Shown here in pieces: positions 47,674 through 61,303 of a stretch of 64,000 nucleotides of DNA (its first letter is position 1; each line of letters opens with the position of its first letter). The notes below the pieces were generated by a model. That model did no database searches and was not told where the DNA came from. It saw nothing but the letters and a program-made list of their open reading frames with translations. The DNA comes from an uncultured beta proteobacterium (lineage in GTDB: Bacteria > Pseudomonadota > Gammaproteobacteria > Burkholderiales > SG8-41), in NCBI GenBank assembly GCA_903885665.1, contig CAISJL010000157.1, forward strand, positions 15,002-79,001. The letters run 5' to 3'. Position numbers and translations under genes: made by a program.

Positions 47674-47979
47674 CTAATCCGACTCGACATCATGGATGAG
47701 CAGCTGTAATGCCAGTCGCCCACCAATGTTCAGGTCACACTTTTCTTCGTTGGCATAAGTGCGCACGAACTTAATCTTAATATTGCGCTGGGCCGCATAT
47801 TCACGGATCTTGTCTGCCTGATTGTCTGTTGAGTACTGTTGATGTTCAGTGAGCATCCGAACGTACTCGGCTGCTTTGACGTTGCTAGGTTGTTCCGTTG
47901 CATCGTGTATGGACTTTTCTGACTGCATATAACCCGATCGTTTGTTATTAGTGTTGATGCGTTCGGGCCTGCCATTCAT
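47674..47979 (-). pseudogene. serine-recombinase (resolvase-domain) N-terminal stub, truncated and with the catalytic Ser replaced
   Basis: The translation contains AAEYVRMLTEHQQYSTDNQADKIREYAAQ...TYANEEK..LNIGGR.ALQLLIHDVES and then stops. This matches the YxRxSTxxQ...NQ opening of serine recombinases. The codon at the catalytic Ser position is CTC (Leu, 47851-47853), and only about 65 residues of the domain remain. Confidence 0.6.
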
Positions 47980-48601: not shown

Positions 48602-49471
48602 CTAGATTGCCGCTTTAGGAATCAGTCGGTCTGCTTGTTGCAACACTAATTCTTTTAAAAACTGCTGATGACTACAGTTTGGGATGGACTCAACAGTCTT
48701 GATAATGAGTGTATTAAAGCAATCTATTGCATCGGTGAGCTGAGTGGAATGAACGGCATTTGGGCGCTGATGTTTTTGGTCTTGTGATATAGGCTTGCCT
48801 AGATCGTCAGCATTGCCAATCACATCACGAATATCATCGGCAATTTGATACGCTGAACCAAGGTGTTCACCGACTACGCGCCACGGTGTTGGATCAAAGC
48901 CAGCTGCCTGGGCTCCAGCCACACTGGCAGCAACAAATAAGGCGCCAGTTTTAGCATGGTGGTATTGTTTTAAAGAGATATCTGATTCACTTTCCCAAGC
49001 TTGACCTGCAATCAAACCATAAGGACTGCCAACACTTGTAGTGAGCGTTTGAATAAGCAGTGTGAGTCGATCAAGGTAACGGGTGTCGGATTGTGCCAGA
49101 TATTGAAAGGCGAGGATGATGAGTGCATCACCTGTAAGTATGGCAATACGCTCACCAAAACGTGCGTGCAATGAAGGCATGCCGCGCCGCGTTGCGGCGT
49201 TATCGAAACAGGGTAAGTCGTCATGGGCGAGAGATGCGCAATGTAATAGTTCTATTGCAGTGGCAACCCGCATTGATAATTGTGGGTCATCATTGCCACA
49301 GGCATGAGATACCGATAAACAAAGTTGTGGACGAACACGAGCGCCGCCAGGAAATACGGCATATTCAATCGCGGACGTTAGCGTAGGCGGACTCACTTTA
49401 GTTTGAGTGAGTGCAACCGCAGCATGCAGGCTTTGTTCAAGATTGCCGATTACATGAAAAATATTACTCAT
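48602..49471 (-). CDS. polyprenyl diphosphate synthase (GGPP/FPP synthase, CrtE/IspA-like)
   Basis: 289-aa ORF with the first Asp-rich motif LAHDDLPCFDN and the second YQIADDIRD. Confidence 0.88.
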   Translation of the reverse strand: MSNIFHVIGNLEQSLHAAVALTQTKVSPPTLTSAIEYAVFPGGARVRPQLCLSVSHACGNDDPQLSMRVATAIELLHCASLAHDDLPCFDNAATRRGMPSLHARFGERIAILTGDALIILAFQYLAQSDTRYLDRLTLLIQTLTTSVGSPYGLIAGQAWESESDISLKQYHHAKTGALFVAASVAGAQAAGFDPTPWRVVGEHLGSAYQIADDIRDVIGNADDLGKPISQDQKHQRPNAVHSTQLTDAIDCFNTLIIKTVESIPNCSHQQFLKELVLQQADRLIPKAAI

Positions 49472-49610
49472 AAATGATGGTGTACACTAATAAAGCATAT
49501 AAAGCATATGATGTTAAATATATCGAATCGTTCAATATTGAGCATTTCAAAGCAATACAAAAAGGATATGATATTGAAAGACAGCTGTTAAGGATAACAA
49601 CAGTTAGATT

Positions 49611-49642
49611 ATTAGTATTGTATGTTATTAGTATTGTATGTT
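49611..49642. repeat. 16-nt tandem duplication (ATTAGTATTGTATGTT x2)
   Basis: Exact copies lie at 49611-49626 and 49627-49642, immediately before the heptamer array. Confidence 0.95.
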
Positions 49643-49650
49643 GTAAAAAC

Positions 49651-49727
49651 TACACCATACACCATACACCATACACCATACACCATACACCATACACCAT
49701 ACACCATACACCATACACCATACACCA
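49651..49727. repeat. heptanucleotide microsatellite (TACACCA)x11
   Basis: Eleven perfect head-to-tail copies were counted directly, followed by a partial TA. Confidence 0.97.
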
Positions 49728-49929
49728 TATAAGTGCTACGGGAGTCCGATGTAAGTGAAGCAGCTACAGGCGAGAAGGGTGTGTGTTGTGAGTCGTATAC
49801 CAAACACGAGCAGGGAAACTGTGGTGTCGTGCAATTCAAGTTTTGGCGTAAGGGTGGGTTGCTGGAGATCTAACGATCAACGAAAACCGCGCCCATTTGT
49901 GCAGACCTTAGCGCAGATGTAGCAAGCGT

Positions 49930-51153
49930 TTAATGTTGGTTTGCAGTATTAATAATTTGAGTAATCCACTCTGCAGTAGCAGGTGCTAAGGTCCAGCCTA
50001 AATGACCGTGGCCAGTGTTATAAAAAATATGCGGATTATGGCCATGACCAACCTTAGGCATCATGTTAGGCATCATAGGTCTGAGGCCGGTCCATGGAAT
50101 CGTTTGGCGGGTATTCACATTAGGGAATAAATCTTCAACCCATTTGATCAGTGGAAGCACTCGGTCGGTTCGAATATCTGTATTAAAACCATTAAATTCA
50201 GCGGTCCCTGCAACACGTAGTCTGTCTATGCCAAGCCGACTAGTCACAATCTTTGCACTGTCATCGAGAAGGCTCACTGAAGGGGCAGCAGACTAGCTGA
50301 GTGTATCTAGTAAAGGAATGGTAATGGAATAGCCTTTCACGGGGTAAATATTGATGCGATCACCCACTTGAGCAGCTAAGTGACGGCTCGCAACACCCGC
50401 GCAAATGACTAATTGATCAAAGTGATGCTCAAAGGCATTGTACTGATCCGAAGAAGAAATCGTAACTTGTTGCGGATGGCAAGTTAATTGTTGTACTTGC
50501 TGGTTAAAGATCAATGTAGCACCAAGACGTTCGCATGCGGCAGCGAGACCAGAAGTATATTTATGGATATCTCCAGTGGAGTCGCTATCAGTAAAAAAAC
50601 CACCATAAAAATTGCCACTCAAGGTAGGCTCAATGCGACGGATATCTTGCGCAGTGACGGGCTGTCGAATTAACCCACCTCGCGCCAGCAATCGAGTTAC
50701 CCGAGATGCGTGGGCAAAATCAGTAGCGTTTCGGTAGATATGAAGAATACCTTGATTGCGATAATCAAAATCAATCTGCTCGATGCGTGCCCAATCAATG
50801 AGAGACTGCCTTGCACGAATAGCCAATTGAACAGTTTGAATGGTGTTTTCTTCGTAATGCGGAATATGAGAAATAAACTCAGTGATCCAAGATAGTTTAT
50901 GCCACGAGGGCTTCATGTTAAACAACAGAGGGGCTTGACTGTTAAACAGCCACCGAATCCCTTTAAGGATGGTTGAAGCTTGATTCCAAACCTCGGCATT
51001 AGAGGCTGAGAGCTGACCGCCATTGGCATACGAGGTCTCCATTGCTGGGTATCGGTTTTTGTCGAAAATAGTGACCTGGTAACCCTGTTTGAGTAAACAA
51101 TAGGCTGTGGTGATACCGGTTATACCCGCACCAATAATTGCGATGGATTTCAT
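49930..51153 (-). pseudogene. D-amino-acid dehydrogenase / glycine-oxidase-like FAD oxidoreductase (DadA family) interrupted by one in-frame TAG
   Basis: ORFs 50293-51153 and 49930-50277 are in the same frame. The join reads YPVKGYSITIPLLDTLS*SAAPSVSLLDDSAKIV, with the stop codon at 50293-50295. The N-terminus is MKSIAIIGAGITGITTAYCL and the C-terminus contains NTGHGHLGWTLAP. The whole sequence is colinear with DadA. Confidence 0.8.
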
Positions 51154-51412
51154 GTTGTTCCTAACAGTAAATAACAGGGTTATAGGGTCGATTAAGATGA
51201 ATTACATCTCAATGCGAGCCCCATCTGTTAGGAACCTGAGAGATTCTCCGCAAAATACCTAAGTATATTTACAGGTTGCTCTTTCGGTGTGTCTAAACAC
51301 AGACAACTCTTCAGATTGTCATCAATGGTCGGTCCTGAGGCCTGAGAGTTTCCGGGGCGGTTGCTCCTTCGGCGCCGCAGATGCAAACGCCTGCGGTCTC
51401 TCCCGATACATT
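51154..51412 (-). promoter_or_regulatory. tandem glycine riboswitch with an SD-sequestering expression platform
   Basis: On the minus-strand RNA, aptamer 1 reads UCGGGAGAGACCGCAGGCG..CUGCGGCGCCGAAGGAGCAACCGCCCCGGAAACUCUCAGGCCUCAGGACCGA. Aptamer 2 reads AUCUGAAGAGUUGUCUGUGUUUAGACACACCGAAAGAGCAACCUG...GGAGAAUCUCUCAGGUUCCUAACAGAU. After that, GUUCCUAACAG (51225-51235) is perfectly complementary to CUGUUAGGAAC (51157-51167), which contains the AGGA located 5 nt before the AUG at 51153. Confidence 0.8.
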
Positions 51413-51471
51413 AAGCCCATATTGTAAGAGAAAATGATGGCTGAAGATAGGTTGGCTGAATAATACTGAGA

Positions 51472-52710
51472 TTAAAGTGTCGCTAACCGCTCAACCCATT
51501 GTACTTGTTGGGGAAGACAGATGGTTTCAAGGTCGTAGTGCTTTTTAGCAAAGGTGCGTGCGGTACGGCCTAAGTGTTCTCGACGGTCTGGTTGATCTAG
51601 TAAATTAATGACTTCAGTGGTAAGGGCGGCAACATCAAAAAAATCAACTAAGCGACCCGTCACATTATGTTGAATAACTTCGTGTAGTGGTTGGGTATTG
51701 CTAGCGACAATAGCGCATCCAATACTCATGGCCTCTAATAAGCTCCAAGATAATACAAATGGATAAGTCAGGTAAACGTGCACTGTTGAGACTTGGAGTA
51801 AACTCAGATAATCTTGATAAGGAATATTACCTAGGAAATGAACCCGCACCCAGTCAGCGTCTGAAATTTTTGGACGAACTTCATCAATAAAAATATCTTT
51901 CCAGTTTTTGCCCGCTTTAGGTTTTGATCCATAGCTAACGCCATTCCCGCCCACGATCAGTATGTGTGCATTGGGGCGACTTTTCAGTAACTCGGGCAGC
52001 GCACGCATGAAAATATGATAGCCACGGTAAGGCTCTAGATTGCGATTAATAAAAGTAATGATTTCGTCGTTACGAGTGAATGGTCTATTTTGAAGGGGTT
52101 GATAAGTTGCCAAGAGATTAGGTTTGGCAATATTCGTATGAATACCATCATGGATCACCTGCATTTTAGCTCGAAAATTTTCTGGAAACGTGCTGGCTTG
52201 CCAGTGAGTAGGGGAAATCCACGCATCAGAGAGATTAAAATGGAGATGATTATTCAGATTTTTTAAGCTTAAGCGGCACGGCTCGGTAATGTCATTGCGA
52301 AGCCCAAATTCAGGATCAAAATTCATATCGCCACCCGCTAATTTATAGTAATACTCACCATAAGTGCCGAGACGCGTTAGTGGCCAAATATGCTTCAGAA
52401 AGAGTGAATCTCCCCACGCCGGATGAGCAATGATGACATCTGGGGTAAACCCTTCAGACTTAAGGCGGTGGGCTGCTCTAAAGCAAGCCTCACCACGGAT
52501 TGTTTTAGATTCAAAGTCGGCAAGCCACGGGTGTATGTTTGCTGACGAGCGACGTTCGACAGAATAGCTGACTAATGATACGCCTTGCCAGACATGAGTA
52601 TTGTATGCACGAAGCGCTAACGCAACGACTGTGTGACCGCGCCGCACCAGTTCGGGCGCTAAGTGTTTAAACTGACCCGGAAAATTTTGATGCACAAATA
52701 AGATATTCAT
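51472..52710 (-). CDS. GT4-family (group 1) glycosyltransferase
   Basis: The protein begins MNILFVHQNFPGQFKHL and has a C-terminal GT-B half with the E(x7)E-type region LLEAMSIGCAIVAS. The start is set at ATG 52710. Confidence 0.78.
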   Translation of the reverse strand: MNILFVHQNFPGQFKHLAPELVRRGHTVVALALRAYNTHVWQGVSLVSYSVERRSSANIHPWLADFESKTIRGEACFRAAHRLKSEGFTPDVIIAHPAWGDSLFLKHIWPLTRLGTYGEYYYKLAGGDMNFDPEFGLRNDITEPCRLSLKNLNNHLHFNLSDAWISPTHWQASTFPENFRAKMQVIHDGIHTNIAKPNLLATYQPLQNRPFTRNDEIITFINRNLEPYRGYHIFMRALPELLKSRPNAHILIVGGNGVSYGSKPKAGKNWKDIFIDEVRPKISDADWVRVHFLGNIPYQDYLSLLQVSTVHVYLTYPFVLSWSLLEAMSIGCAIVASNTQPLHEVIQHNVTGRLVDFFDVAALTTEVINLLDQPDRREHLGRTARTFAKKHYDLETICLPQQVQWVERLATL

Positions 52711-52806
52711 AAATATAAAAAATAAAATAAAGAATTCAAAATAAGTGACAGGTGTGGTGGGCGTAGTAGTCGAGAGTTGCAATCAGTGATGAGGGTTTAA
52801 ATGCGC

Positions 52807-54009
52807 TTACAGCGAACGATAGACCTGCGCTAAAGTAGCTACTCCCTGATGAATTTCTTCGTGGCTTAGACTCGCAAAACATAAACGCATACGATTGCGA
52901 GCGTGTGGTTTATTCACAGACCATTCTGGGCCAGGGTTAATCGCTACACCGGCTGCTTGTGCCTGCTGAAACAGCGCTAGGGTGTCAATATGCTCTGGAA
53001 GTGTGACCCATAAAAATATCCCACCTTGTACATCATCAAAAGATACAGCATCACCAAAATGGGTGTGCAGTGCTTCTTTTAGGGTGATGAATTTATTATG
53101 CAAGCCTTTGCGTAGTGCAACGATATGTTTGCCAAAGTGACTTTGGCAATACTCAGCGAGAACCATCTGCTCTAAAGCGCCAGACCCAGCATCTGTTTTA
53201 AGCGACAAAATATGTGACAAAACATTCCAAGAGGCAACAATAAATCCAACGCGTAGAGCAGGTGCAATAGATTTAGAAAACGAGCCAATATGAATAACAT
53301 TATTGTATGGACTCATCGCATATAGCGCCGGCGGGCGCTCTCCAGACCATGTGAGATCAGCGTAGCAATCGTCTTCAAAAATGGGAACGCCATGCGTATG
53401 CGCGAGTTGGAGCAAGCGTTCGCGGTGCGATGTTGGCATGATGGTGCTGCTTGGATTTTGAACCGTTGGGATTGTATAAATATATTTCGGCCGAACACCT
53501 TTGGATGAAAGCGCATTAAGCACGGATGCTAATACATCTATACGCATACCCTGTTCATTGAGGGGTATGCCAATCGGATTGACGCCCATGCGTAATAAGC
53601 GATTAATCGAGCCTTGATAGCAATCCTCTTCAATGATGACCGTGTCGCCCCGTGTGAGTAGGGTGTGATTAATCAAATCGATGGCTTGCAATGAGCCCGA
53701 GGTGATTAAAATGTCGTTGACTGTGCACTGAATGGCGGCATCGGCGAGTAATTTTTTGACCAAAAATTCACGTAAAGGGCGATACCCTTGCGGGCCGCTG
53801 TTTAAACTATATGTTGAAAGCGAACGACCTTCGCGTTTTAACACAGTTTCAGTTGCTACTATTAAATCTTGGAGCGGTAACTGATCCGGATCATTATTGC
53901 CACCAGTAAAATCAAACTTTGGTCGGCCAGTCCAACGCATTGCCGCAGGAGGAAGACCAGGTGCTAATAGGGGAGCGAAGTCAAATGTAGTGTCTGTAGT
54001 CGAGTGCAT
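52807..54009 (-). CDS. PLP-dependent aminotransferase, class I/II fold
   Basis: 400-aa ORF containing IYTIPTVQNPS, FEDDCY and the Lys site GSFSKSIAPALRVGF. Confidence 0.85.
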   Translation of the reverse strand: MHSTTDTTFDFAPLLAPGLPPAAMRWTGRPKFDFTGGNNDPDQLPLQDLIVATETVLKREGRSLSTYSLNSGPQGYRPLREFLVKKLLADAAIQCTVNDILITSGSLQAIDLINHTLLTRGDTVIIEEDCYQGSINRLLRMGVNPIGIPLNEQGMRIDVLASVLNALSSKGVRPKYIYTIPTVQNPSSTIMPTSHRERLLQLAHTHGVPIFEDDCYADLTWSGERPPALYAMSPYNNVIHIGSFSKSIAPALRVGFIVASWNVLSHILSLKTDAGSGALEQMVLAEYCQSHFGKHIVALRKGLHNKFITLKEALHTHFGDAVSFDDVQGGIFLWVTLPEHIDTLALFQQAQAAGVAINPGPEWSVNKPHARNRMRLCFASLSHEEIHQGVATLAQVYRSL

Positions 54010-54165
54010 GGTGCGCCCTTTGTGATGAATTTATGGTTATCTTTATGGTTGTTATTATGTGGTTGTTATTATGGCTGTGATTCATGGAGTAGTGGTTATT
54101 AATTTTATTTAATGGTATTGAATTTAATCTATTGCATGGCATGACATCAGTGGATCATAAGCTAG

Positions 54166-54195
54166 TGATGATGTGATGATGTGATGATGTGATGA
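54166..54195. repeat. 8-nt tandem repeat (TGATGATG) x3.75
   Basis: Read directly from the 54010-54860 spacer. Confidence 0.9.
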
Positions 54196-54669
54196 ACCAA
54201 TGAGACATCAGTGAATGTTTTGATAAAACATTGTATATATTCAGGAATAAACAAATTAGTCGTTTTAATGAAATTAAAAACGGTAAAAATGCATTGTCAT
54301 GTCAATATTAAATGCATAATTCTGGAAAATGCATATCAATATAGTGATAAACTTCTATTGCATGTCAATCGCGTGATGCGTGTCTACATCCAAGACCTTA
54401 AGACTGAACAAGCCTAGTGTTTCTATATCTGAGCGCCACTGATAAACCTAGAGTTTTCCAATCGTAACGGGCTAAGTTCGCGGATTAGCTGGTGCTCAAG
54501 TGCACCATTGGGGATCGTCATTTTTGCGAATACATGAATGCTCGTGTGCTGTAAGTCAATGCATGTGGTGGCATGTTTATGATGTGGTTATTGTGTAGGA
54601 TCAATACTGTTATGGGTAATCGCTGGCTACAACAAACACTCGCAAGTGATGAGCGATAAGAAGAAAGGA

Positions 54670-54697
54670 TAGGAAGCAAAGGACAGGAAGCAAAGGA
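54670..54697. repeat. 14-nt tandem duplication (AGGAAGCAAAGGAC x2)
   Basis: Exact copies lie at 54670-54683 and 54684-54697. Confidence 0.95.
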
Positions 54698-54860
54698 CAC
54701 AGACTACACAATGTAAGGCGTGACTTGTAGTGCTGAGTTGTGGTGGTCTGTTGAGCATGCTCAGTGTAGTATTTACGCCGATTAGATGACGCTATGATTA
54801 TGATAAGCTCGGTGAATCTGCATATGATTAAGTATCGATAAACGCGCACAGGAGATCTGA

Positions 54861-55673
54861 ATGAGTTTCGAACACATTGCTAATGATTATGGTTTGATGG
54901 GTAAAGTCGCGATAGTGTCTGGTGCAGGTGGTCCCATTGGAGATGGTTTAGAAGAGGGTGTGACTAATGGTCGTGCTACAGCCATTTTGCTGGCGCGCGC
55001 CGGTGCAAAAGTGTGTGTAGTAGGCCGCACACTAGAGCTTGCTCAACATACAGTGAATATTATTCAACAAGAAGGTGGTGAAGCGTTTGCACATGTTGCT
55101 GACGTTACCAAAGAGGCGGAATGTAAGGCGGTTGTGGAGGCTACGATGGCACGTTATGGCCGGGTGGATTGTCTGGATAATAATGTCGGACGTAGTGCGC
55201 CAGGCGATGTGGTTGAGATGAGTCTTGAAGAGTGGCGCAATATGTTTGCCTTGAATGTCGATAGCATGATGTTGATGTGTAAGTATGCGATTCCCGCCAT
55301 GGTCGCAGGTGGCGGCGGGTCGATTGTGAATATTGGTTCTCTACGCAGTATTCGACCCCAAAACTCCACAGTGTATTCGGTGACCAAGGGTGCAGTGGTC
55401 GCGCTTACTGCAACCTTGGCCGCCGATCATGGCGCACAAGGCATACGCGCTAATTGTATTATTCTTGGCCCTGTATTTACGCCAAACATTAATCGCAATC
55501 TCACGCCTGAGCGTAGACGCTTGCGGGCAGAAGCCTCTTTGATGAAGCGTGAAGGCAGTGGTTGGGATACTGGTCATTTGGCGCGATTCTTATTGTCTGA
55601 GCAGTCTAAATTTATGACTGGCCAGAGCATCTGTCTGGACGGTGGCGCATCATTGGTGGGGCCATCACGCTAA
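54861..55673 (+). CDS. short-chain dehydrogenase/reductase (SDR)
   Basis: 270-aa ORF containing VSGAGG.IG, NNVG, the active-site sequence SVTKGAV (Y-x3-K: YSVTK) and a preceding GGAG Shine-Dalgarno sequence. Confidence 0.9.
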   Translation: MSFEHIANDYGLMGKVAIVSGAGGPIGDGLEEGVTNGRATAILLARAGAKVCVVGRTLELAQHTVNIIQQEGGEAFAHVADVTKEAECKAVVEATMARYGRVDCLDNNVGRSAPGDVVEMSLEEWRNMFALNVDSMMLMCKYAIPAMVAGGGGSIVNIGSLRSIRPQNSTVYSVTKGAVVALTATLAADHGAQGIRANCIILGPVFTPNINRNLTPERRRLRAEASLMKREGSGWDTGHLARFLLSEQSKFMTGQSICLDGGASLVGPSR

Positions 55674-56000
55674 ACGCTAGACAATAGTTTTTATTCTGAC
55701 GGTTGGCAGGTCTATGTGTTTCAAAGGCAGTGGACAGTGAGATGATTGAGAAACGCCGGCAAAAAACATAGATCTGTTAATTGTAGATGCTTAGGCAATG
55801 CCCAGTGGGTAAGCTGCAAAAAATTTAAAAAATTTAAAAAATGTAAGAAATTCAATCAATTCAATCAATGCAAGAAATGCAACAAACGCAAGATCTGCAA
55901 CAACCACAACAACTGAAATGGTTGCCCCTCAATCTAAAAACCGCATGCACTGCGCTATAAAATAAAACGGTTTACAGATGAATGTACTCACAATGACACA

Positions 56001-57236
56001 ATGCAGCCCCTTACACTGGCGACCATGATTGCTCATGAAGATTCATTTTTAGAGCAGATTCTAAAATTTGACGATCAAGGTCAAGCTTCATCGCAATCGA
56101 GCAGTGAAGGCATTCCTTATGTGACTAATGCCTTTTGGACAGCACGTCAACGGCAAGCCCATAGCTTGCACGAGATTAGTTATCGCGCATGTTTTAAACC
56201 ACAACTCCCCGAGTTCTTTATCGCGCGCCTCACCCAGCCGGGCGATACGGTCTACGACCCCTTTATGGGTCGCGGCACTACCCCACTGCAAGCGGCGTTG
56301 ATGGGTCGGTGCGCAGTGGGCAACGATATTAATCCATTAAGTATATTGTTCACACGGCCGCGACTGCGTCCACCAACACTAGAGGCAGTAGCACAGCGAC
56401 TTCAACAAGTGGATTGGCAATGTGGCGAAATTGAAAATGAAGAATTACTGGTTTTTTATAGTCCACAAACCCTACGCCACATATATGCTCTGCGTCAGTG
56501 GTTGTTAGCGCGTGCACCGATTGATCGAGTAGTCGACCCGGTCGATGATTGGATACGCATGGTAGCGATTAATCGACTCACAGGTCATTCGAGTGGTTTT
56601 TTCTCAGTCTATACCTTGCCACCTAATCAGGCGGTGTCGATCGCATCACAACGAAAAATCAATGCCAAAAGAAATCAAACTCCAGTCGATCGTGATATTC
56701 AAAAGATCATATTAAAAAAGACGCGGTCTTTGCTACGAGACGCGGCGATAGTGAATGCTGCAGTCGGGCAGCCCTATAGTTGCTTAACCACAGGGCCTGC
56801 TGAGCGTAATGCGCAACTGCGTGCAGCTTCAGTGCAGTTGGTCATCACCTCGCCACCGTTTCTGGATATTGTGCAATATGCTGATGATAATTGGTTACGC
56901 AATTGGTTTTCTGGCATTGATACCCAAAGCTTAGCTATCGCGCATCACCGACATGCTAGTGATTGGCAACACATGGTTGCTGCAACCTTGCAAGAGTTAA
57001 CAAGGGTAGTGGCGGTTGGCGGACATATTGCGTTTGAAGTTGGTGAAGTGCGTCATGGGCAGGTGATGTTAGAACAACAAGTGTGGGCAGCAGCCGAGGG
57101 CTTGCCCCTAGAACGCATCGCCGTGATGATTAATCAACAAACTTTTTCTAAGACTGCTAATTGCTGGGGCGTGGACAATAATACGCAAGGCACAAATAGC
57201 AATCGAATTGTCATTTTGCGGCGCATTGCTGATTAA
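56001..57236 (+). CDS. N6/N4 DNA methyltransferase family protein (motif I before motif IV, long spacer)
   Basis: 411-aa ORF with the AdoMet-binding motif DPFMGRGTTPLQA at about aa 86 and the catalytic motif TSPPF at about aa 285. Confidence 0.72.
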   Translation: MQPLTLATMIAHEDSFLEQILKFDDQGQASSQSSSEGIPYVTNAFWTARQRQAHSLHEISYRACFKPQLPEFFIARLTQPGDTVYDPFMGRGTTPLQAALMGRCAVGNDINPLSILFTRPRLRPPTLEAVAQRLQQVDWQCGEIENEELLVFYSPQTLRHIYALRQWLLARAPIDRVVDPVDDWIRMVAINRLTGHSSGFFSVYTLPPNQAVSIASQRKINAKRNQTPVDRDIQKIILKKTRSLLRDAAIVNAAVGQPYSCLTTGPAERNAQLRAASVQLVITSPPFLDIVQYADDNWLRNWFSGIDTQSLAIAHHRHASDWQHMVAATLQELTRVVAVGGHIAFEVGEVRHGQVMLEQQVWAAAEGLPLERIAVMINQQTFSKTANCWGVDNNTQGTNSNRIVILRRIAD

Positions 57237-57397
57237 AAAATCGAGTACTGCGCAACCTAAAGCAGAGTTAAATTGCGCTTTGAGGTCCGCGTACTGGTCT
57301 GTGCATTGATTTTATTCATGATCTTCGTTACGTTCGATGATGGATATCAAAGATAACCCTTGAGTATGCAAACATAGGGTCGCACAGAGAGGACGTA

Positions 57398-58399
57398 ATG
57401 AAACAATTCAAAATAATATGGAGTGTGCTGTGCACTGCACTGTGCTCCGTAGTGTGTGCAATACTGGTGTTATGGCCTAAGCCTGGCGTGAGTGCAGATG
57501 GATACCCTAATCGACCGATCCGCTTGATTATTCCATTTGCGCCCGGTGGGGCTACCGATGTCGTGGCTCGAATTCTAGGATCTAAATTGACCGAGAAATT
57601 AGGTCAGCAAATCGTGATGGATATTCGCCCGGGTGCTGGCAGCGTGTTGGGCACGGACATTGGCGCTAAAGCCAGTCCTGATGGATATACCATTGTGCTG
57701 GTGGCCACAGCACATGTATTGAATACGGGTTTGCTCGCTAGGTTGCCTTATGATGCCATTACTGATTTCTCGCCGATATCGATGGTGGTTGAGTCACCAT
57801 TAATCTTTTTGGTGCCGCCTAATTTGGGGGTCAATACCATAGGTGAATTAATTGCAACAGCGAAAGCTAAGCCCGGTAGTATGAGTTATGGCTCAGCTGG
57901 GCAAGGCACGAGTGGTCATTTGGCGACCGAACTCTTAAAGTTGCGTGCGGGTATTCAAATGATACATGTGCCCTATAAGGGCGCAGGTCAGGCCTTGATT
58001 GATTTGCTCGGTGGCCAGATTCAGATGCTGTGTACCAGCACAGTGCCGTCCTTACCCCATGTTCGCACAGGCAAACTGAAAGGTATTGCAGTCACTACAC
58101 GTACACGCTCGCGCGCTGCACCCGAGATCCCGACAGTGGCAGAGTCCGGGCTTCCCGGTTTTCAAGCAACGACTTGGTATGCATTACTAGCACCTGCCAA
58201 AACACCAGAACCGATTATTAAAACCTTACACCTAGCCTTGACCCAAGTATTGCGCACACCAGCAGTGGCAGAACAATTAATTGCCCAAGGTGCAGAGCCA
58301 ATGCCGAATAGCCCAGATGAATTGCGACATTTTTTTAAAAACGAGATTGAGATCTGGACCAAGGTGATTAAGCAAGCCAATATTCGGCCCAATACTTAA
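57398..58399 (+). CDS. Bug/TctC family periplasmic solute-binding protein
   Basis: 333-aa ORF with a signal peptide, YPNRPIRLIIPFAPGGATDV and HVPYKGAGQ. Confidence 0.9.
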   Translation: MKQFKIIWSVLCTALCSVVCAILVLWPKPGVSADGYPNRPIRLIIPFAPGGATDVVARILGSKLTEKLGQQIVMDIRPGAGSVLGTDIGAKASPDGYTIVLVATAHVLNTGLLARLPYDAITDFSPISMVVESPLIFLVPPNLGVNTIGELIATAKAKPGSMSYGSAGQGTSGHLATELLKLRAGIQMIHVPYKGAGQALIDLLGGQIQMLCTSTVPSLPHVRTGKLKGIAVTTRTRSRAAPEIPTVAESGLPGFQATTWYALLAPAKTPEPIIKTLHLALTQVLRTPAVAEQLIAQGAEPMPNSPDELRHFFKNEIEIWTKVIKQANIRPNT

Positions 58400-58457
58400 T
58401 ACGCCATACCAACTGTATGTTGGTGAGCGACGGTAGATCAGAATAGGAGTCAAAAGT

Positions 58458-59417
58458 ATGCAAACCAAAAATATGCAAACTAAAGCAGCCATAATGCGCG
58501 CTTTACTGCGCGAAGGTATTGTAGTCTCACCAGGCATTTATGATGGTTTGAGTGCGCGGATGGTTGAGCGCGCAGGGTTTAAGGCGGCCGCAACGGGCGG
58601 TAGTGGTTTTTCGAATGCGTTAATGGGGCAGCCTGATATTGGTTTGTTGTCGATGACCGAGAACGTCGATGCTTGCCGACATTTAGTACGCTCGGTATCT
58701 ATCCCGATTATGGCGGATGCCGAAACCGGTTATGGTAATCCGGTCACGGTTTATCACGCCGTACAGTATTTTGAAGAAGCTGGAGTGGTGGGCATGAATA
58801 TCGAAGATCAATTAAGCCCGAAGCGCTGTGGTCATATGCAAGGCAAAGAATTAATTAGTCCGCGTGAGATGGCCAAAAAAATTGAAGCTGCTGTTAAAGC
58901 CAAGAAAGATCCAGATTTTATTATTAATGCGCGCACCGATGCGATTGCTGTAGAGGGCTTAGACAGTGCGATACGCCGTGCTCAACTCTATGTTTCAGCA
59001 GGTGCTGATATGGTGTTTCCGGACGCAGTGCATACTGAAGATGACATCCGACGCTTTGTTGACGCCGTATCCGTCCCCGTCAGCATTAATATGGGATTTG
59101 CGATTCGGTCGCGACCAACAACGCCCCTGATTTCAGTGAAACGACTCGCCGAGCTGGGTGTGGCGCGGGTGTCTGCAGCTCGGATGTTGCCAGCGGCTGC
59201 ATTAATGGGCATGCACAAAGCATTAGAGGTATTGAATGAGAGCCTCAGTAGTGGCGAAGTGCGTGATCGTCCCGATTTAATCTACGGCATGGAAGAAATT
59301 ACTAGCTTGATGGGCTATGCCCATATTGCTGATTTAGAATCGATGTTTTTGCTCGAGGAGCAATTACAAAACAAATACGGCACTGCCAAGCCCGATTATG
59401 TGATTAGAGAGTCGTGA
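58458..59417 (+). CDS. isocitrate lyase / PEP mutase superfamily enzyme (methylisocitrate-lyase / oxaloacetate-decarboxylase-like)
   Basis: 319-aa ORF containing PG.YDG.SAR, ATGGSGFS, ADAETGYGN and NIEDQ..PKRCGH..GK. AGGAG lies 8 nt upstream of the ATG. Confidence 0.85.
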   Translation: MQTKNMQTKAAIMRALLREGIVVSPGIYDGLSARMVERAGFKAAATGGSGFSNALMGQPDIGLLSMTENVDACRHLVRSVSIPIMADAETGYGNPVTVYHAVQYFEEAGVVGMNIEDQLSPKRCGHMQGKELISPREMAKKIEAAVKAKKDPDFIINARTDAIAVEGLDSAIRRAQLYVSAGADMVFPDAVHTEDDIRRFVDAVSVPVSINMGFAIRSRPTTPLISVKRLAELGVARVSAARMLPAAALMGMHKALEVLNESLSSGEVRDRPDLIYGMEEITSLMGYAHIADLESMFLLEEQLQNKYGTAKPDYVIRES

Positions 59418-59426
59418 GTCACTAGT

Positions 59427-59497
59427 GATGAATTGAGATACATGAATTGAGATAGATGAGTTGAGAAAGATGAATTGAGATACATGAATTCAAAGAT
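59427..59497. repeat. degenerate 14-nt tandem array ((C/G)ATGAATTGAGATA, about 5 copies)
   Basis: Exact cores lie at 59428-59440, 59442-59454 and 59470-59482, with variant copies between and after them. Confidence 0.85.
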
Positions 59498-59613
59498 AAG
59501 CATTGAAAATCATGCTTGGCATACCGGGCGTTGATTGCCTGGTATCGCTGATGATGTGATTGAACAGTATAGTATTTTAAGTAGAAAACAAAGTAGTCAA
59601 CGAACTGTCAAAT

Positions 59614-59644
59614 CAATGTATTCAATAAATTTTTGAATACATTG
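59614..59644. promoter_or_regulatory. perfect 12-bp inverted repeat (candidate operator or 5'-UTR hairpin)
   Basis: CAATGTATTCAA (59614-59625), a 7-nt AT spacer, then TTGAATACATTG (59633-59644). The repeat lies about 50 nt upstream of ATG 59693. Confidence 0.45.
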
Positions 59645-59692
59645 GCAAATCAACTAGCAAACAAACGTGTACACATAGGAAGGATAGAGAAG

Positions 59693-61303
59693 ATGACTAC
59701 ACAACAGGTCTATGACCCGGTTGCACCATGCCTCACCGCGACAGCGGCTCCCCATCGGTTCTTGGAGCAACTCAGTGGTAAGGTGGTTGGATTTCTAGAT
59801 AATGCAAAACCAAACTTCAATCATTTAGTCGATGATCTAGCAGAGATATTAGTGCGTGATTATCAGGTGGCGCGGGTTGTAAAGCGACGTAAACGCAGTG
59901 CATCGCAAGGCGCACCCGAGGCGATGTTGCAAGAGCTTGCAGATCAGTGTGATGCCGTCATTACGGGCTCGGGTGACTGAGGCTCCTGCACATCGTGGAG
60001 TGTCCACGATACTGTAGAGTTAGTGAAACGGGGTTTGGTTGCAATGACTGTGTGTTCAGAGCAGTTCATTGGGTTAGGTCGGGCACAACAAAAAGCCTTG
60101 GGTTTTCCGGGACTGGCGATTGCTGTCGTGCCACATCCCTTTGGCACTCAAGCGCGGGAGGCTTTGACAGAGATTGCACGCGATTGTGCTGCGCAAATTG
60201 CCCAGCATTTATGTGATATTGGTAGTGATGAACCCGTAGCTGCTGCGAGTGCAGTAGCGGCGGTGCCGCGCGCCTTGTTAGTAGAAGCACCATTAGCGCT
60301 CGGTGCTCTGAATCAATTCTATATTGAACGGCGCTGGGGTGATGGCTTGCCGATTGTGCCACCGACTGTTGCTGCAGTTGACGAGATGTTGCAACACACC
60401 ACGTTGGCGCGCGATACAGTAGTGGCCACGATTGCGCCTGGTTTTGGTGTGGCCACTGTGGAATATATAGCGATTAATGCGGTGATGGCGGGTTGCTTGC
60501 CACAGTATTTACCCGTGCTGATTGCTGCGGCACGAGCAGTCGCGACCACTACATTTCATTTGCAAGCGATTCAAGCTACCACCAATCCGGCGGCTGTATG
60601 GTTAGTGGTGAATGGTCCGATCGCCAAGACGCTCGGTGTGAATGCCGGCAGCAACTGTTTGGGTCAGGGCGTATGGGCGAATGCAACGCTAGGGCGTGCA
60701 TTGCGTTTAATGTTGCAAAATATTGGGCGTGCACTACCCGGTGAGATGGACCGCTCAACCCAAGGTCAGCCCGGCAAATACTTATTTTGCTGCGCCGAGA
60801 ATGAAGCAGCGAGCCCGTGGGAGCCCTTGCATGTGGAGCGTGGGTTTGCAGCGACTGAGAGCACCGTTACTGTGGTGGGGGCGCTGGGTACTTGGAGTAT
60901 GAATATGACCGCCTCTGCTGCTGAGGATGTGCTATTCATGATTGCCGAGACCATGCAATATCCCGCCAGCAGTGATTATGTGTTTGGCGGCCATCCGTTT
61001 ATTTTGCTCTCGCCGCAGCATGCAAAGATTTTCGCTGCAGCTGGTTGGAGTAAAGCGGAGTTTAAACAACGCTTGTGGGCTGCGTCTAAAATGCCTGCAG
61101 GACGCTCGCGTGGTAGTGAGTTTGAACGCACCGTGACAGCCCGCCAAGCAGAGCTGGGTCAGATTGGTCCGGAGACTTTGCTACCGATCACCGTAGTGCC
61201 CGAAGATATTGGTGTGATTGTGGCGGGCGGCACTGGATCACATTCGGTATTTGTGCCGGTGTCTGCACACACGCAAGCGGTGACTTGTGCTATTACAGCG
61301 TGA
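59693..61303 (+). CDS. putative selenoprotein: UGSC-motif domain fused to a C-terminal domain of unknown function (TGA 59978-59980 read as Sec)
   Basis: ORFs 59633-59980 and 60023-61303 are in the same frame (an offset of 390 nt), and the TGA is the only stop between them. The read-through gives ...CDAVITGSGD-U-GSCTSWSVHDTVELVKRGLVAMTV.... A SECIS-like hairpin follows the TGA. AGGAAGGA lies upstream of ATG 59693. Confidence 0.65.
59986..60017 (+). promoter_or_regulatory. SECIS-like recoding hairpin
   Basis: The upper stem AUCGUGG (59992-59998) / CCACGAU (60004-60010) closes a loop AGUGU. The lower stem CUGCA (59986-59990) / UGUAG (60013-60017) is separated from it by a small internal loop. 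The hairpin begins 6 nt after the UGA. Confidence 0.55.

What the first reader, a model, noticed from the sequence alone, without database searches (positions are those of the whole stretch)
51154..51412. Tandem glycine riboswitch controlling a DadA-like oxidoreductase instead of the glycine-cleavage operon
The minus-strand leader of the dadA-like gene carries both aptamers of a glycine riboswitch, with the GGAGAG / CGCCGAAGGAGCAA / CUCUCAGG..GGAC cores. Aptamer 2 has G-to-A variants (CUGAAGAG, CCGAAAGAGCAA). The 3' strand of the aptamer-2 P1 stem (CAGAU) overlaps an 11-nt segment, GUUCCUAACAG. That segment pairs perfectly with CUGUUAGGAAC, which covers the Shine-Dalgarno AGGA. This gives a clear mutually exclusive ON-switch design acting on translation. 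The best-known targets of this riboswitch class are gcvT, gcvP and transporters. An FAD-dependent D-amino-acid/glycine oxidase-type gene on an AT-rich island is an unusual target.
Basis: partly seen in the sequence, partly recalled or inferred. Interest (0 to 1): 0.65.

Follow-up and report, generated by a model that had tools for sequence, protein, structure and literature searches.

The report
Glycine riboswitch before broken glycine-oxidase gene
This is an ordinary tandem glycine riboswitch of an already catalogued type that turns on translation of a glycine-oxidising DadA enzyme, but in this genome the enzyme gene carries a premature stop codon and the riboswitch's second sensor carries a linked mutation at an otherwise invariant base.

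Summary
Rfam finds two adjacent glycine aptamers on the minus strand, at 51415-51320 (59.2 bits) and 51318-51221 (35.0 bits, cutoff 32). All quoted motifs and the perfect 11-nt anti-Shine-Dalgarno complement are present.

The target is not unusual. About 75 of 80 orthologues of this DadA subfamily (NCBIfam NF009074), across Beta- and Gammaproteobacteria, carry the same tandem riboswitch. Sun et al. 2013 already list dadA in glycine-riboswitch regulons. The Cupriavidus necator orthologue DadA6 oxidises glycine to glyoxylate and is about 200-fold induced on glycine.

The translational ON-switch design is supported. The anti-SD and SD segments covary across orthologues (0 of 5000 permutations match). 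The ligand-free minimum-energy fold forms the SD-sequestering helix, and no terminator was found.

- The gene has an in-frame TAG at codon 287, replacing an invariant Gln. Sibling metagenome contigs carry the intact gene.
- The CCGAAAGAGCAA variant is a derived G-to-A change at a base invariant in the other 71 orthologue aptamer-2 cores found. It occurs only on the nonsense haplotype.

The other variant, CUGAAGAG, is the norm for this class. Overall this is a known kind of element that may be decaying here, and interest is low.

The parts
51320..51415 (-). Glycine riboswitch aptamer 1. It has the canonical cores GGAGAG, CGCCGAAGGAGCAA and CUCUCAGG..GGAC.
   Evidence: RF00504 hit at 59.2 bits, E 1.1e-9, covering the full model 1-94. 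It is identical in sibling contigs.
51221..51318 (-). Glycine riboswitch aptamer 2. It has the class-typical GAAGAG and an enlarged terminal loop in the P3 arm.
   Evidence: RF00504 hit at 35.0 bits, against a gathering score of 32. The intact haplotype scores 40.0 bits.
51282..51282 (-). Derived G-to-A substitution in the conserved aptamer-2 core, turning CCGAAGGAGCAA into CCGAAAGAGCAA.
   Evidence: A in the window, L082 and L083. G in L081 and L084-L087. G in the other 71 of 72 aptamer-2 cores found by the motif search and in all 71 aptamer-1 cores found. The change costs 5 bits.
51225..51235 (-). Anti-SD segment GUUCCUAACAG. It spans the junction after CUCUCAGG plus the first 3 nt of the aptamer-2 P1 3' strand (CAGAU, 51227-51223).
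   Evidence: Perfect 11-nt complement to 51167-51157. The equivalent segment covaries with the SD region in orthologues.
51182..51224 (-). Inner part of the OFF-state stem: AUGGGG (51224-51219) pairs with CCCUAU (51187-51182) and encloses a hairpin (51218-51188).
   Evidence: Present in the minimum-energy fold. Orthologues have a GGGGG...hairpin...CCCC(U) element at the same position.
51157..51167 (-). SD-containing strand CUGUUAGGAAC. The Shine-Dalgarno AGGA is at 51162-51159.
   Evidence: Read directly. It is paired in the ligand-free minimum-energy fold.
49930..51153 (-). dadA-type FAD-dependent glycine/D-amino-acid dehydrogenase gene, orthologue of C. necator dadA6. It is a pseudogene in this haplotype.
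   Evidence: NF009074 hit at 671 bits against a cutoff of 494; Pfam DAO E 6.6e-69. The frame runs 407 codons with one internal stop.
50293..50295 (-). Premature in-frame TAG at codon 287, replacing CAG (Gln).
   Evidence: Gln287 is invariant in 16 aligned orthologues. C in five sibling contigs, T in the window, L082 and L083.

Best explanation
The leader at 51415-51154 (minus strand) is a standard tandem glycine riboswitch with one expression platform. It belongs to a widespread, already catalogued class that sits in front of the DadA6-type FAD-dependent glycine dehydrogenase/oxidase gene.

**Proposed mechanism**
- Without glycine, the junction and first P1 bases at the 3' end of aptamer 2 (GUUCCUAACAG) pair with CUGUUAGGAAC. 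This pairing is extended by AUGGGG:CCCUAU around a small hairpin. The resulting long stem buries the Shine-Dalgarno sequence, so translation is off.
- With glycine, the aptamers fold, P1 of aptamer 2 forms, and its 3' junction is drawn into the aptamer core. The SD is released and translation starts.
- This is an ON switch for an enzyme that removes glycine by oxidising it to glyoxylate.

**State in this genome**
The unit appears inactivated. The enzyme gene has a CAG-to-TAG nonsense mutation at an invariant Gln287. The same haplotype has a G-to-A change at an otherwise invariant base in the aptamer-2 core.

**Shown versus inferred**
- Shown: aptamer identity; conservation of the riboswitch-gene pairing; covariation of anti-SD with SD; the nonsense and core mutations and their linkage.
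- Inferred: glycine binding; the direction of switching; loss of function.
For: - **Aptamers:** two adjacent RF00504 hits above the gathering score.
- **Gene family:** NF009074 at 671 bits against a cutoff of 494. The closest solved structures are all glycine oxidases.
- **Conserved pairing with the gene:** 72 of 80 orthologue loci have the aptamer core motif 110-266 nt upstream of the start. 75 of 80 have the aptamer-2 3' motif within 170 nt. A formal Rfam scan gave aptamer hits at gathering score upstream of the gene in 17 of 20 sampled loci; one of those is cut off by the contig end.
- **Prior catalogue:** Sun et al. 2013 Additional file 1 lists dadA as a glycine-riboswitch operon in Ralstonia eutropha H16, three other Cupriavidus/Ralstonia strains, a Burkholderia genome, Paracoccus denitrificans, Loktanella and Oceanicola.
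- **Enzyme function in an orthologue:** C. necator DadA6 converts glycine to glyoxylate in vivo. It is about 200-fold induced on glycine and is required for growth on glycine.
- **Orthology to DadA6:** the published dadA6-rev primer matches about 1.17 kb upstream of the orthologue, pointing towards the gene, in three Cupriavidus loci with 1-2 mismatches.
- **Platform:** the architecture is conserved in an alignment of 70 orthologues. Cognate anti-SD/SD duplexes average -8.79 kcal/mol against -7.22 for non-cognate pairs; 0 of 5000 permutations reach the observed value. With one representative for each of 22 sequence types, 1 of 5000 do.
- **Ligand-free fold:** the window's minimum-energy structure forms the OFF stem, z = -4.27. 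No intrinsic terminator was found.
- **Nonsense codon:**. Gln287 is invariant. An intact allele is widespread, indexed in 55 blocks of the collection.
- **The nonsense allele is real:** it occurs in two further independent assemblies that also carry a private synonymous SNP.
- **Linked aptamer change:** G51282A is linked to the nonsense allele, 3 of 3 against 0 of 5. That G is otherwise invariant.
Against: - No experiment here shows glycine binding or switching.
- In most orthologues the anti-SD segment overlaps P1 by only 1-3 nt. Mutual exclusivity therefore rests mainly on the junction strand being needed by the folded aptamer, which is inferred from general knowledge of the fold.
- The duplex-energy test is alignment-free but does not fully remove phylogenetic relatedness.
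- The link between the 'dadA' of Sun et al. and DadA6 rests on a primer match in sister species, not on the H16 sequence itself.
- The effect of G51282A on binding is unknown. Aptamer 1 is intact, so the RNA might still switch.
- The truncated 286-aa product could in principle retain some role.
Confidence: 0.78

Rival explanations
1. One reading: the riboswitch has been unusually retargeted from the glycine-cleavage operon to an atypical oxidoreductase carried on a horizontally acquired AT-rich island. On this view the aptamer-2 G-to-A variants are adaptive peculiarities of this locus.
For: - G+C is lower at 49-60 kb.
- A resolvase fragment and a DNA methylase lie nearby.
- The nearest orthologues outside the population are only about 65% identical.
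- Reviews of this riboswitch class stress gcv and transporter contexts.
Against: - The pairing is the rule for this enzyme subfamily in at least 75 of 80 species-level loci from two proteobacterial classes.
- It was catalogued in 2013.
- GAAGAG is class-typical.
- The other variant is a haplotype-specific lesion.
- Gene order is fixed in all sibling contigs.
Confidence: 0.04
2. The unit is still functional in this genome. Either the TAG is a sequencing or assembly artefact, or it is read through. G51282A would then be a neutral hitchhiker, with aptamer 1 doing the sensing.
For: - The contig is from a metagenome-assembled genome.
- Apart from the nonsense C-to-T at 50295 and G51282A, the window matches most intact-haplotype contigs across the ~1.58 kb compared.
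- Aptamer 1 is intact and aptamer 2 still passes the Rfam threshold.
- In ON-switch (gcv) contexts, aptamer 1 is reported to be the more conserved and more important aptamer (Crum et al. 2019).
Against: - The same 286-aa product is encoded in two other assemblies from different samples. Those also share a private synonymous SNP, so the allele is real and has diversified.
- TAG ends 6 of 38 long frames in the window, so it is an ordinary stop here.
- The replaced Gln is invariant, and 121 residues, including strongly conserved C-terminal motifs, would be lost.
Confidence: 0.1
3. Control is mainly transcriptional, by intrinsic or Rho-dependent termination in the leader, rather than by SD sequestration.
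For: - Many Firmicute glycine riboswitches use terminators (general knowledge; titles).
- Blocked translation often exposes mRNA to Rho, so a secondary transcriptional effect is plausible.
Against: - No terminator-like hairpin plus U-tract was found between 49400 and 51700 on either strand.
- The conserved alternative helix always includes the SD GGA(G).
Confidence: 0.08

Closest known systems
Tandem glycine riboswitch (Rfam RF00504; gcvT-type ON switches of Bacillus subtilis and Vibrio cholerae)
   Same: - Two homologous aptamers joined by a short linker, with a single expression platform.
- Conserved GGAGAG / CGCCGAAGGAGCAA / CUCUCAGG..GGAC cores.
- Potential leader-linker pairing.
- ON logic for a glycine-consuming function.
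- Aptamer 1 is closer to the consensus than aptamer 2, as reported for ON-switch (gcv) contexts.
   Different: - The downstream gene is dadA rather than gcvT.
- The platform sequesters the SD rather than forming a terminator.
- Aptamer 2 of the whole dadA class has GAAGAG instead of GGAGAG.
- This copy has an additional core G-to-A change.
Glycine-riboswitch-regulated dadA operons catalogued in RegPrecise (Sun et al. 2013, PMC3766115), e.g. Ralstonia eutropha H16, Cupriavidus metallidurans, Paracoccus denitrificans
   Same: - The same regulon member: a monocistronic dadA preceded by glycine aptamers.
- My Cupriavidus loci (L031, L059, L066, L073) show the same tandem arrangement upstream of the NF009074-type gene.
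   Different: - This copy is from an uncultured freshwater Burkholderiales MAG.
- It is only about 60-65% identical at protein level.
- It carries a nonsense codon.
Cupriavidus necator DadA6 (glycine oxidation to glyoxylate; Claassens et al., bioRxiv 10.1101/2020.03.11.987487)
   Same: - Orthologous enzyme family (primer match to orthologous Cupriavidus loci; 60-61% identity).
- Strong induction by glycine is the behaviour expected of a glycine ON switch.
   Different: - That work does not mention a riboswitch (0 occurrences).
- The activity of the protein encoded by this population's intact allele is untested.
Glycine oxidase ThiO (PDB 1NG3, 1RYI) and the other solved glycine oxidases (6J38, 4YSH)
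   Same: FAD-dependent DAO fold. These are the closest solved relatives by sequence, with E 4e-19 to 1e-8.
   Different: - The relationship is distant.
- The TIGR02352 ThiO model scores 148.6 bits, below its 250.8 cutoff, so this is not ThiO.
- There is no thiamine-gene context.

Membership tests
Glycine riboswitch (RF00504), tandem architecture | Covariance-model score at or above the Rfam gathering score for each aptamer | tested here: met
   59.2 and 35.0 bits against a gathering score of 32. The sibling haplotype scores 59.2 and 40.0 bits.
Glycine riboswitch (RF00504), tandem architecture | Two aptamers head to tail with a short linker, followed by one expression platform in a 5' leader | tested here: met
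   The aptamers are at 51415-51320 and 51318-51221. The platform runs to the ATG at 51153.
Glycine riboswitch (RF00504), tandem architecture | Leader-linker (P0) pairing typical of tandem glycine riboswitches | tested here: inconclusive
   In the window, UUAAUG (51414-51409) can pair with CAUUGA (51327-51322). Across 66 orthologues, cognate leader/linker duplexes average -5.59 against -4.79 kcal/mol, with 6 of 5000 permutations reaching the observed value. The kink-turn itself was not examined.
Glycine riboswitch (RF00504), tandem architecture | All highly conserved core nucleotides present in both aptamers | tested here: not met
   Aptamer 1 is canonical. Aptamer 2 has A at 51282 where the other 71 of 72 orthologue aptamer-2 cores found, and the sibling haplotype, have G. 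It also has the class-typical GAAGAG in place of GGAGAG.
Glycine riboswitch (RF00504), tandem architecture | Selective, cooperative glycine binding | not testable with these tools
   This needs in-line probing, ITC or SHAPE.
Glycine riboswitch (RF00504), tandem architecture | Association with a glycine metabolism or transport gene, conserved across species | tested here: met
   About 75 of 80 orthologue loci carry it. It is listed in Sun et al. 2013.
NF009074 / PRK12409 D-amino acid dehydrogenase (DadA6-type glycine dehydrogenase/oxidase) | Full-length HMM match above the curated cutoff | tested here: met
   671.2 bits against 494, covering profile positions 1-406 of 410, with the stop read as X.
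NF009074 / PRK12409 D-amino acid dehydrogenase (DadA6-type glycine dehydrogenase/oxidase) | Uninterrupted reading frame encoding the whole enzyme | tested here: not met
   In-frame TAG at codon 287, 50295-50293. The intact allele exists in sibling contigs.
NF009074 / PRK12409 D-amino acid dehydrogenase (DadA6-type glycine dehydrogenase/oxidase) | N-terminal dinucleotide-binding GxGxxG motif and DAO domain | tested here: met
   GAGITG at residues 8-13. Pfam PF01266 E 6.6e-69 over residues 4-399.
NF009074 / PRK12409 D-amino acid dehydrogenase (DadA6-type glycine dehydrogenase/oxidase) | Oxidation of glycine to glyoxylate | not testable with these tools
   Shown in vivo only for C. necator DadA6. 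Orthology is inferred from the primer match and 60-61% identity.
Glycine oxidase ThiO (TIGR02352) | HMM score above the curated cutoff | tested here: not met
   148.6 bits against a cutoff of 250.8.

The most novel reading that the evidence does not exclude
The dadA-associated tandem riboswitches may form a distinct subclass. Their aptamer 2 carries a conserved GAAGAG junction in place of GGAGAG (61 of 63) and an A/C polymorphic core (CCGAAGG in 36, CCGCAGG in 35). It scores well below aptamer 1. Aptamer 2 might bind glycine weakly or not at all and act mainly as a folding partner and SD-switching module, or it might have an altered ligand preference. The window's haplotype would then be a natural snapshot of a riboswitch and its gene decaying together in a wild population.
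Probability: 0.15. Interest if true: 0.4.

Novelty: new member of a known kind. Interest (0 to 1): 0.18.

Why it matters
There is little news for riboswitch biology. The element is a regular member of a known class in a known genomic context. Three modest points are of practical use:
- The data tie together two pieces of the literature that the papers I could search do not connect. One is the catalogued glycine-riboswitch-dadA operon. The other is the experimentally shown, glycine-induced DadA6 glycine-to-glyoxylate route now used in reductive-glycine-pathway engineering. A riboswitch is a ready explanation for that induction.
- The comparative alignment gives a testable, conserved SD-sequestering platform for this class.
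- The linked nonsense and aptamer-core mutations, set against intact sibling alleles, offer a natural pair of RNAs and genes for testing the role of that conserved G.

Tried and rejected
- **Literature on a direct link.** Full-text searches for 'glycine riboswitch' with 'D-amino acid dehydrogenase', 'dadA', 'glycine oxidase', or 'glyoxylate'/'FAD-dependent' found no paper discussing this pairing in its main text. The dadA hits were Dickeya dadantii or unrelated. The pairing turned up only in a supplementary table of Sun et al. 2013. Crum et al. 2019 and Ruff et al. 2016 do not mention it.
- **Terminator-based control.** No terminator-like site was found.
- **TAG recoding or readthrough.** TAG is a normal stop in the window, and sibling alleles have CAG.
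- **Assembly error.** Rejected because two further assemblies carry the same allele.
- **tRNA-flanked island.** There are no tRNA genes in the window.
- **ThiO membership.** The score is below the cutoff.
- **Glyphosate oxidoreductase paper.** It has no bearing on this locus.
- **Species identity.** The genome-collection scan did not return this species' own genome among its 80 best loci. The organism is therefore known only as a Burkholderiales MAG, from cluster names.
- **dadA6-for primer.** No match in the Cupriavidus loci within 5 mismatches. Only dadA6-rev matched.

Full report
**1. The observation**

- Aptamer 1 has GGAGAG (51403-51398), CGCCGAAGGAGCAA (51374-51361) and CUCUCAGG..GGAC (51348-51332).
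- Aptamer 2 has CUGAAGAG (51314-51307), CCGAAAGAGCAA (51287-51276) and CUCUCAGG (51242-51235).
- GUUCCUAACAG (51235-51225) is the exact reverse complement of CUGUUAGGAAC (51167-51157). The latter holds AGGA (51162-51159), 5 nt before the ATG at 51153.

A cmscan of the whole window against Rfam 15 gives only two hits. Both are RF00504, adjacent and on the minus strand: 51415-51320 (59.2 bits, E 1.1e-9) and 51318-51221 (35.0 bits, gathering score 32, E 0.0025).

**2. The gene behind it**

The frame opening at 51153 runs 407 codons to 49930. It is interrupted by TAG at codon 287 (50295-50293). The ORF finder therefore reports two in-frame pieces of 286 and 115 aa.

With the stop read as X, the protein matches three models:
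- Pfam DAO, E 6.6e-69.
- The NCBIfam equivalog NF009074 (PRK12409, 'D-amino acid dehydrogenase'), 671 bits against a cutoff of 494.
- It falls below the cutoffs for the classical DadA model NF001933 (335 against 383) and for ThiO (149 against 251).

Its closest solved relatives by sequence are all glycine oxidases.

**3. The stop codon is a real, derived allele**

- A database search returned a 407-aa protein with Gln at position 287 (P0001). It matches the window's translation apart from N31 for D31.
- Gln287 is invariant in 16 aligned orthologues.
- The 90% cluster contains many intact 407-aa members on long contigs, while the 286-aa product occurs on three contigs.
- I fetched two further contigs with the truncated product from different assemblies (L082, L083). 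I also fetched four long contigs with the intact gene and the same gene order as the window (L084-L087).
- Aligning about 1.58 kb from all of them shows only six variable sites.
- Two of those sites separate the haplotypes cleanly. At 50295 the window, L082 and L083 have T, against C in the other five. At 51282 the same three have A, against G in the other five.
- L082 and L083 also share a private synonymous change at 50932. The nonsense lineage has therefore diversified and is not an assembly error.
- TAG ends 6 of 38 long frames in the window, so it is an ordinary stop.

**4. The second linked change hits the riboswitch**

Position 51282 is the third A of CCGAAAGAGCAA. The sibling haplotype reads the canonical CCGAAGGAGCAA and scores 40.0 rather than 35.0 bits.

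Among the orthologues, that G is present in the other 71 of 72 aptamer-2 cores found by the motif search, and in all 71 aptamer-1 cores found.

Of the 63 orthologue aptamer-2s in which the motif was found, 61 have GAAGAG, while aptamer 1 nearly always has GGAGAG. One variant is thus a class signature and the other a haplotype-specific lesion.

**5. Is DadA an unusual target? No.**

- A scan of one genome per species returned 595 relatives. I kept the best 80 loci, at 58-64% identity. They come from Comamonadaceae, Cupriavidus, Polynucleobacter, Massilia, Azoarcus, Marinobacter, Halomonas/Vreelandella, Stutzerimonas, Nitrincola and others.
- 72 of the 80 have the aptamer core motif 110-266 nt upstream of the start codon, on the coding strand.
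- 75 of the 80 have the aptamer-2 3' motif within 170 nt of the start. One of the five exceptions has only 65 nt of upstream sequence.
- A formal Rfam scan of 20 loci, deliberately including the apparent negatives, found glycine aptamers at gathering score just upstream of the gene in 17. Only L042, L064, L072 and L074 remain negative, and L043 has only 65 nt of upstream sequence.
- Aptamer 1 scored 52-70 bits and aptamer 2 scored 38-52 bits. The weaker aptamer 2 is therefore typical of the class.

The literature already records the pairing. Additional file 1 of Sun et al. 2013 (PMC3766115) lists 'dadA' as a glycine-riboswitch operon, next to gcvTHP. The genomes include Ralstonia eutropha H16, Cupriavidus taiwanensis, C. 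metallidurans CH34, R. eutropha JMP134, a Burkholderia genome, Paracoccus denitrificans, Loktanella and Oceanicola.

**6. What the enzyme does**

In Cupriavidus necator, dadA6 is about 200-fold induced during growth on glycine. Its product converts glycine to glyoxylate in an E. coli sensor strain, and its deletion abolishes growth on glycine (bioRxiv 10.1101/2020.03.11.987487). That paper does not mention a riboswitch.

The published check primer dadA6-rev (PMC11879842) matches with 1-2 mismatches about 1.17 kb upstream of the orthologue, pointing towards it, in three Cupriavidus loci (L059, L066, L073). All three carry the tandem aptamer cores.

I therefore infer that DadA6 is the orthologue of the window's gene, and that the class is a glycine-inducible glycine-to-glyoxylate enzyme. 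This step is an inference, because the H16 sequence itself was not available to me.

**7. How the switch most likely works**

An alignment of 70 distinct platforms shows a conserved layout, in this order:
- CUCUCAGG;
- a short segment such as UCCAGAAC, UUCCAAAC, UCCAGCAC or, in the window, UUCCUAAC;
- AGAGGGGG;
- a variable hairpin;
- CCCC(U);
- usually UGACG;
- a segment complementary to the first one that runs into the SD (GUUCUGGAG, GUUUGGAG, GUGCUGGAG or, in the window, CUGUUAGGAAC);
- the start codon.

The two segments change together. An alignment-free test compared duplex energies of each locus's own pair with mismatched pairs. It gave -8.79 against -7.22 kcal/mol, with 0 of 5000 permutations as good. 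With one representative for each of 22 sequence types, 1 of 5000 was as good.

The window's pair is the strongest of the 22 representative pairs listed (-14.3 kcal/mol, 11 perfect pairs). The ligand-free minimum-energy fold of 51320-51140 forms exactly this stem, extended by AUGGGG:CCCUAU around a hairpin (-55.5 kcal/mol, z = -4.27). No terminator-like site exists in 49400-51700.

The best reading is a translational ON switch:
- Without glycine, the 3' junction and the start of P1 of aptamer 2 hold the SD.
- With glycine, that strand is taken up by the folded aptamer and the SD is free.

The overlap with P1 proper is only 1-3 nt. Most of the competing strand is the junction after CUCUCAGG.

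A leader-linker pairing, as in other tandem glycine riboswitches, is possible in the window (UUAAUG with CAUUGA). It has modest comparative support, with 6 of 5000 permutations reaching the observed value.

**8. Context**

- G+C is 0.40-0.48 from 49 to 60 kb, against about 0.49-0.57 in most of the rest.
- Neighbours are a family-4 glycosyltransferase, an aminotransferase, a polyprenyl synthetase, an SDR, a DNA methylase and a resolvase fragment.
- The window has no tRNA genes.
- The same order is found in all sibling contigs. If this is an island, it is fixed in the population. I did not test island status further.
- The organism is an uncultured Burkholderiales bacterium from metagenome assemblies that appear, from their sample names, to be freshwater.
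- Whether its gcv operon has its own riboswitch cannot be seen from this window. The only Rfam hits in the window are the two aptamers.

**9. Verdict**

This is a correct identification of an ordinary, already catalogued riboswitch-gene pair with a well supported SD-sequestering platform. The claim of an unusual target fails.

What is specific to this window is that the unit may be decaying. There is a nonsense codon at an invariant Gln, plus a linked change at an otherwise invariant aptamer-2 base, while intact alleles circulate in the same population.

Interest is low. The residual points of value are the untested link between the riboswitch and DadA6 induction, and the class-wide GAAGAG signature of aptamer 2.

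Noticed in passing
window 49651-49729: A perfect heptamer tandem repeat, TACACCA x 11.3, lies in the gap between the dadA 3' end and the polyprenyl synthetase gene. Copy number differs between sibling contigs: 11 here, 6+4 in L084, 3 in L086, and fewer than 3 in L085 and L087. It is a hypervariable repeat, and it creates the spurious HHTPYTI-repeat ORF at 49474-49758.
   Followed up: partly
orthologue loci L001-L080, aptamer 2: Aptamer 2 of the dadA-linked riboswitches almost always has GAAGAG where the Rfam consensus and aptamer 1 have GGAGAG (61 of 63). Its core splits nearly evenly between CCGAAGGAGCAA (36) and CCGCAGGAGCAA (35). This may mark a context-specific subclass.
   Followed up: partly
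L042, L064, L072, L074: Four orthologue loci show no glycine aptamer upstream of the gene, either by motif or by Rfam at gathering score. They are Halothiobacillus, Massilia, a Pigmentiphaga plasmid and Marinospirillum. They may use another regulator.
   Followed up: no
window 47674-47979 (minus): A 101-aa ORF matches only the N-terminal part of a serine recombinase/resolvase domain (E 2.2e-5). It lies between lgt and the low-G+C block. It is kept as an 84-101 aa gene in all sibling contigs, so it looks like a conserved remnant of a mobile element.
   Followed up: no
window 49000-60000: A block of lower G+C (0.40-0.48) holds dadA, a glycosyltransferase, an aminotransferase, an SDR, an N6/N4 DNA methylase (56001-57236) and a TctC-family receptor. 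Possible old horizontal acquisition; not tested.
   Followed up: no
window 51421-51426 (minus): TACAAT lies a few bases upstream of the first aptamer base and could be the -10 element of the leader's promoter. The consensus scan found no good -35 element and did not report a promoter here.
   Followed up: no
L018 5559-5622: An nhaA-I RNA (RF03057, 43.3 bits) lies about 1.4 kb downstream of dadA in Comamonas testosteroni. It is unrelated to the finding.
   Followed up: no
L016, L031, L057 downstream of dadA: tRNA genes on the opposite strand follow dadA directly in several orthologue loci. This suggests the riboswitch-controlled unit is monocistronic there.
   Followed up: no
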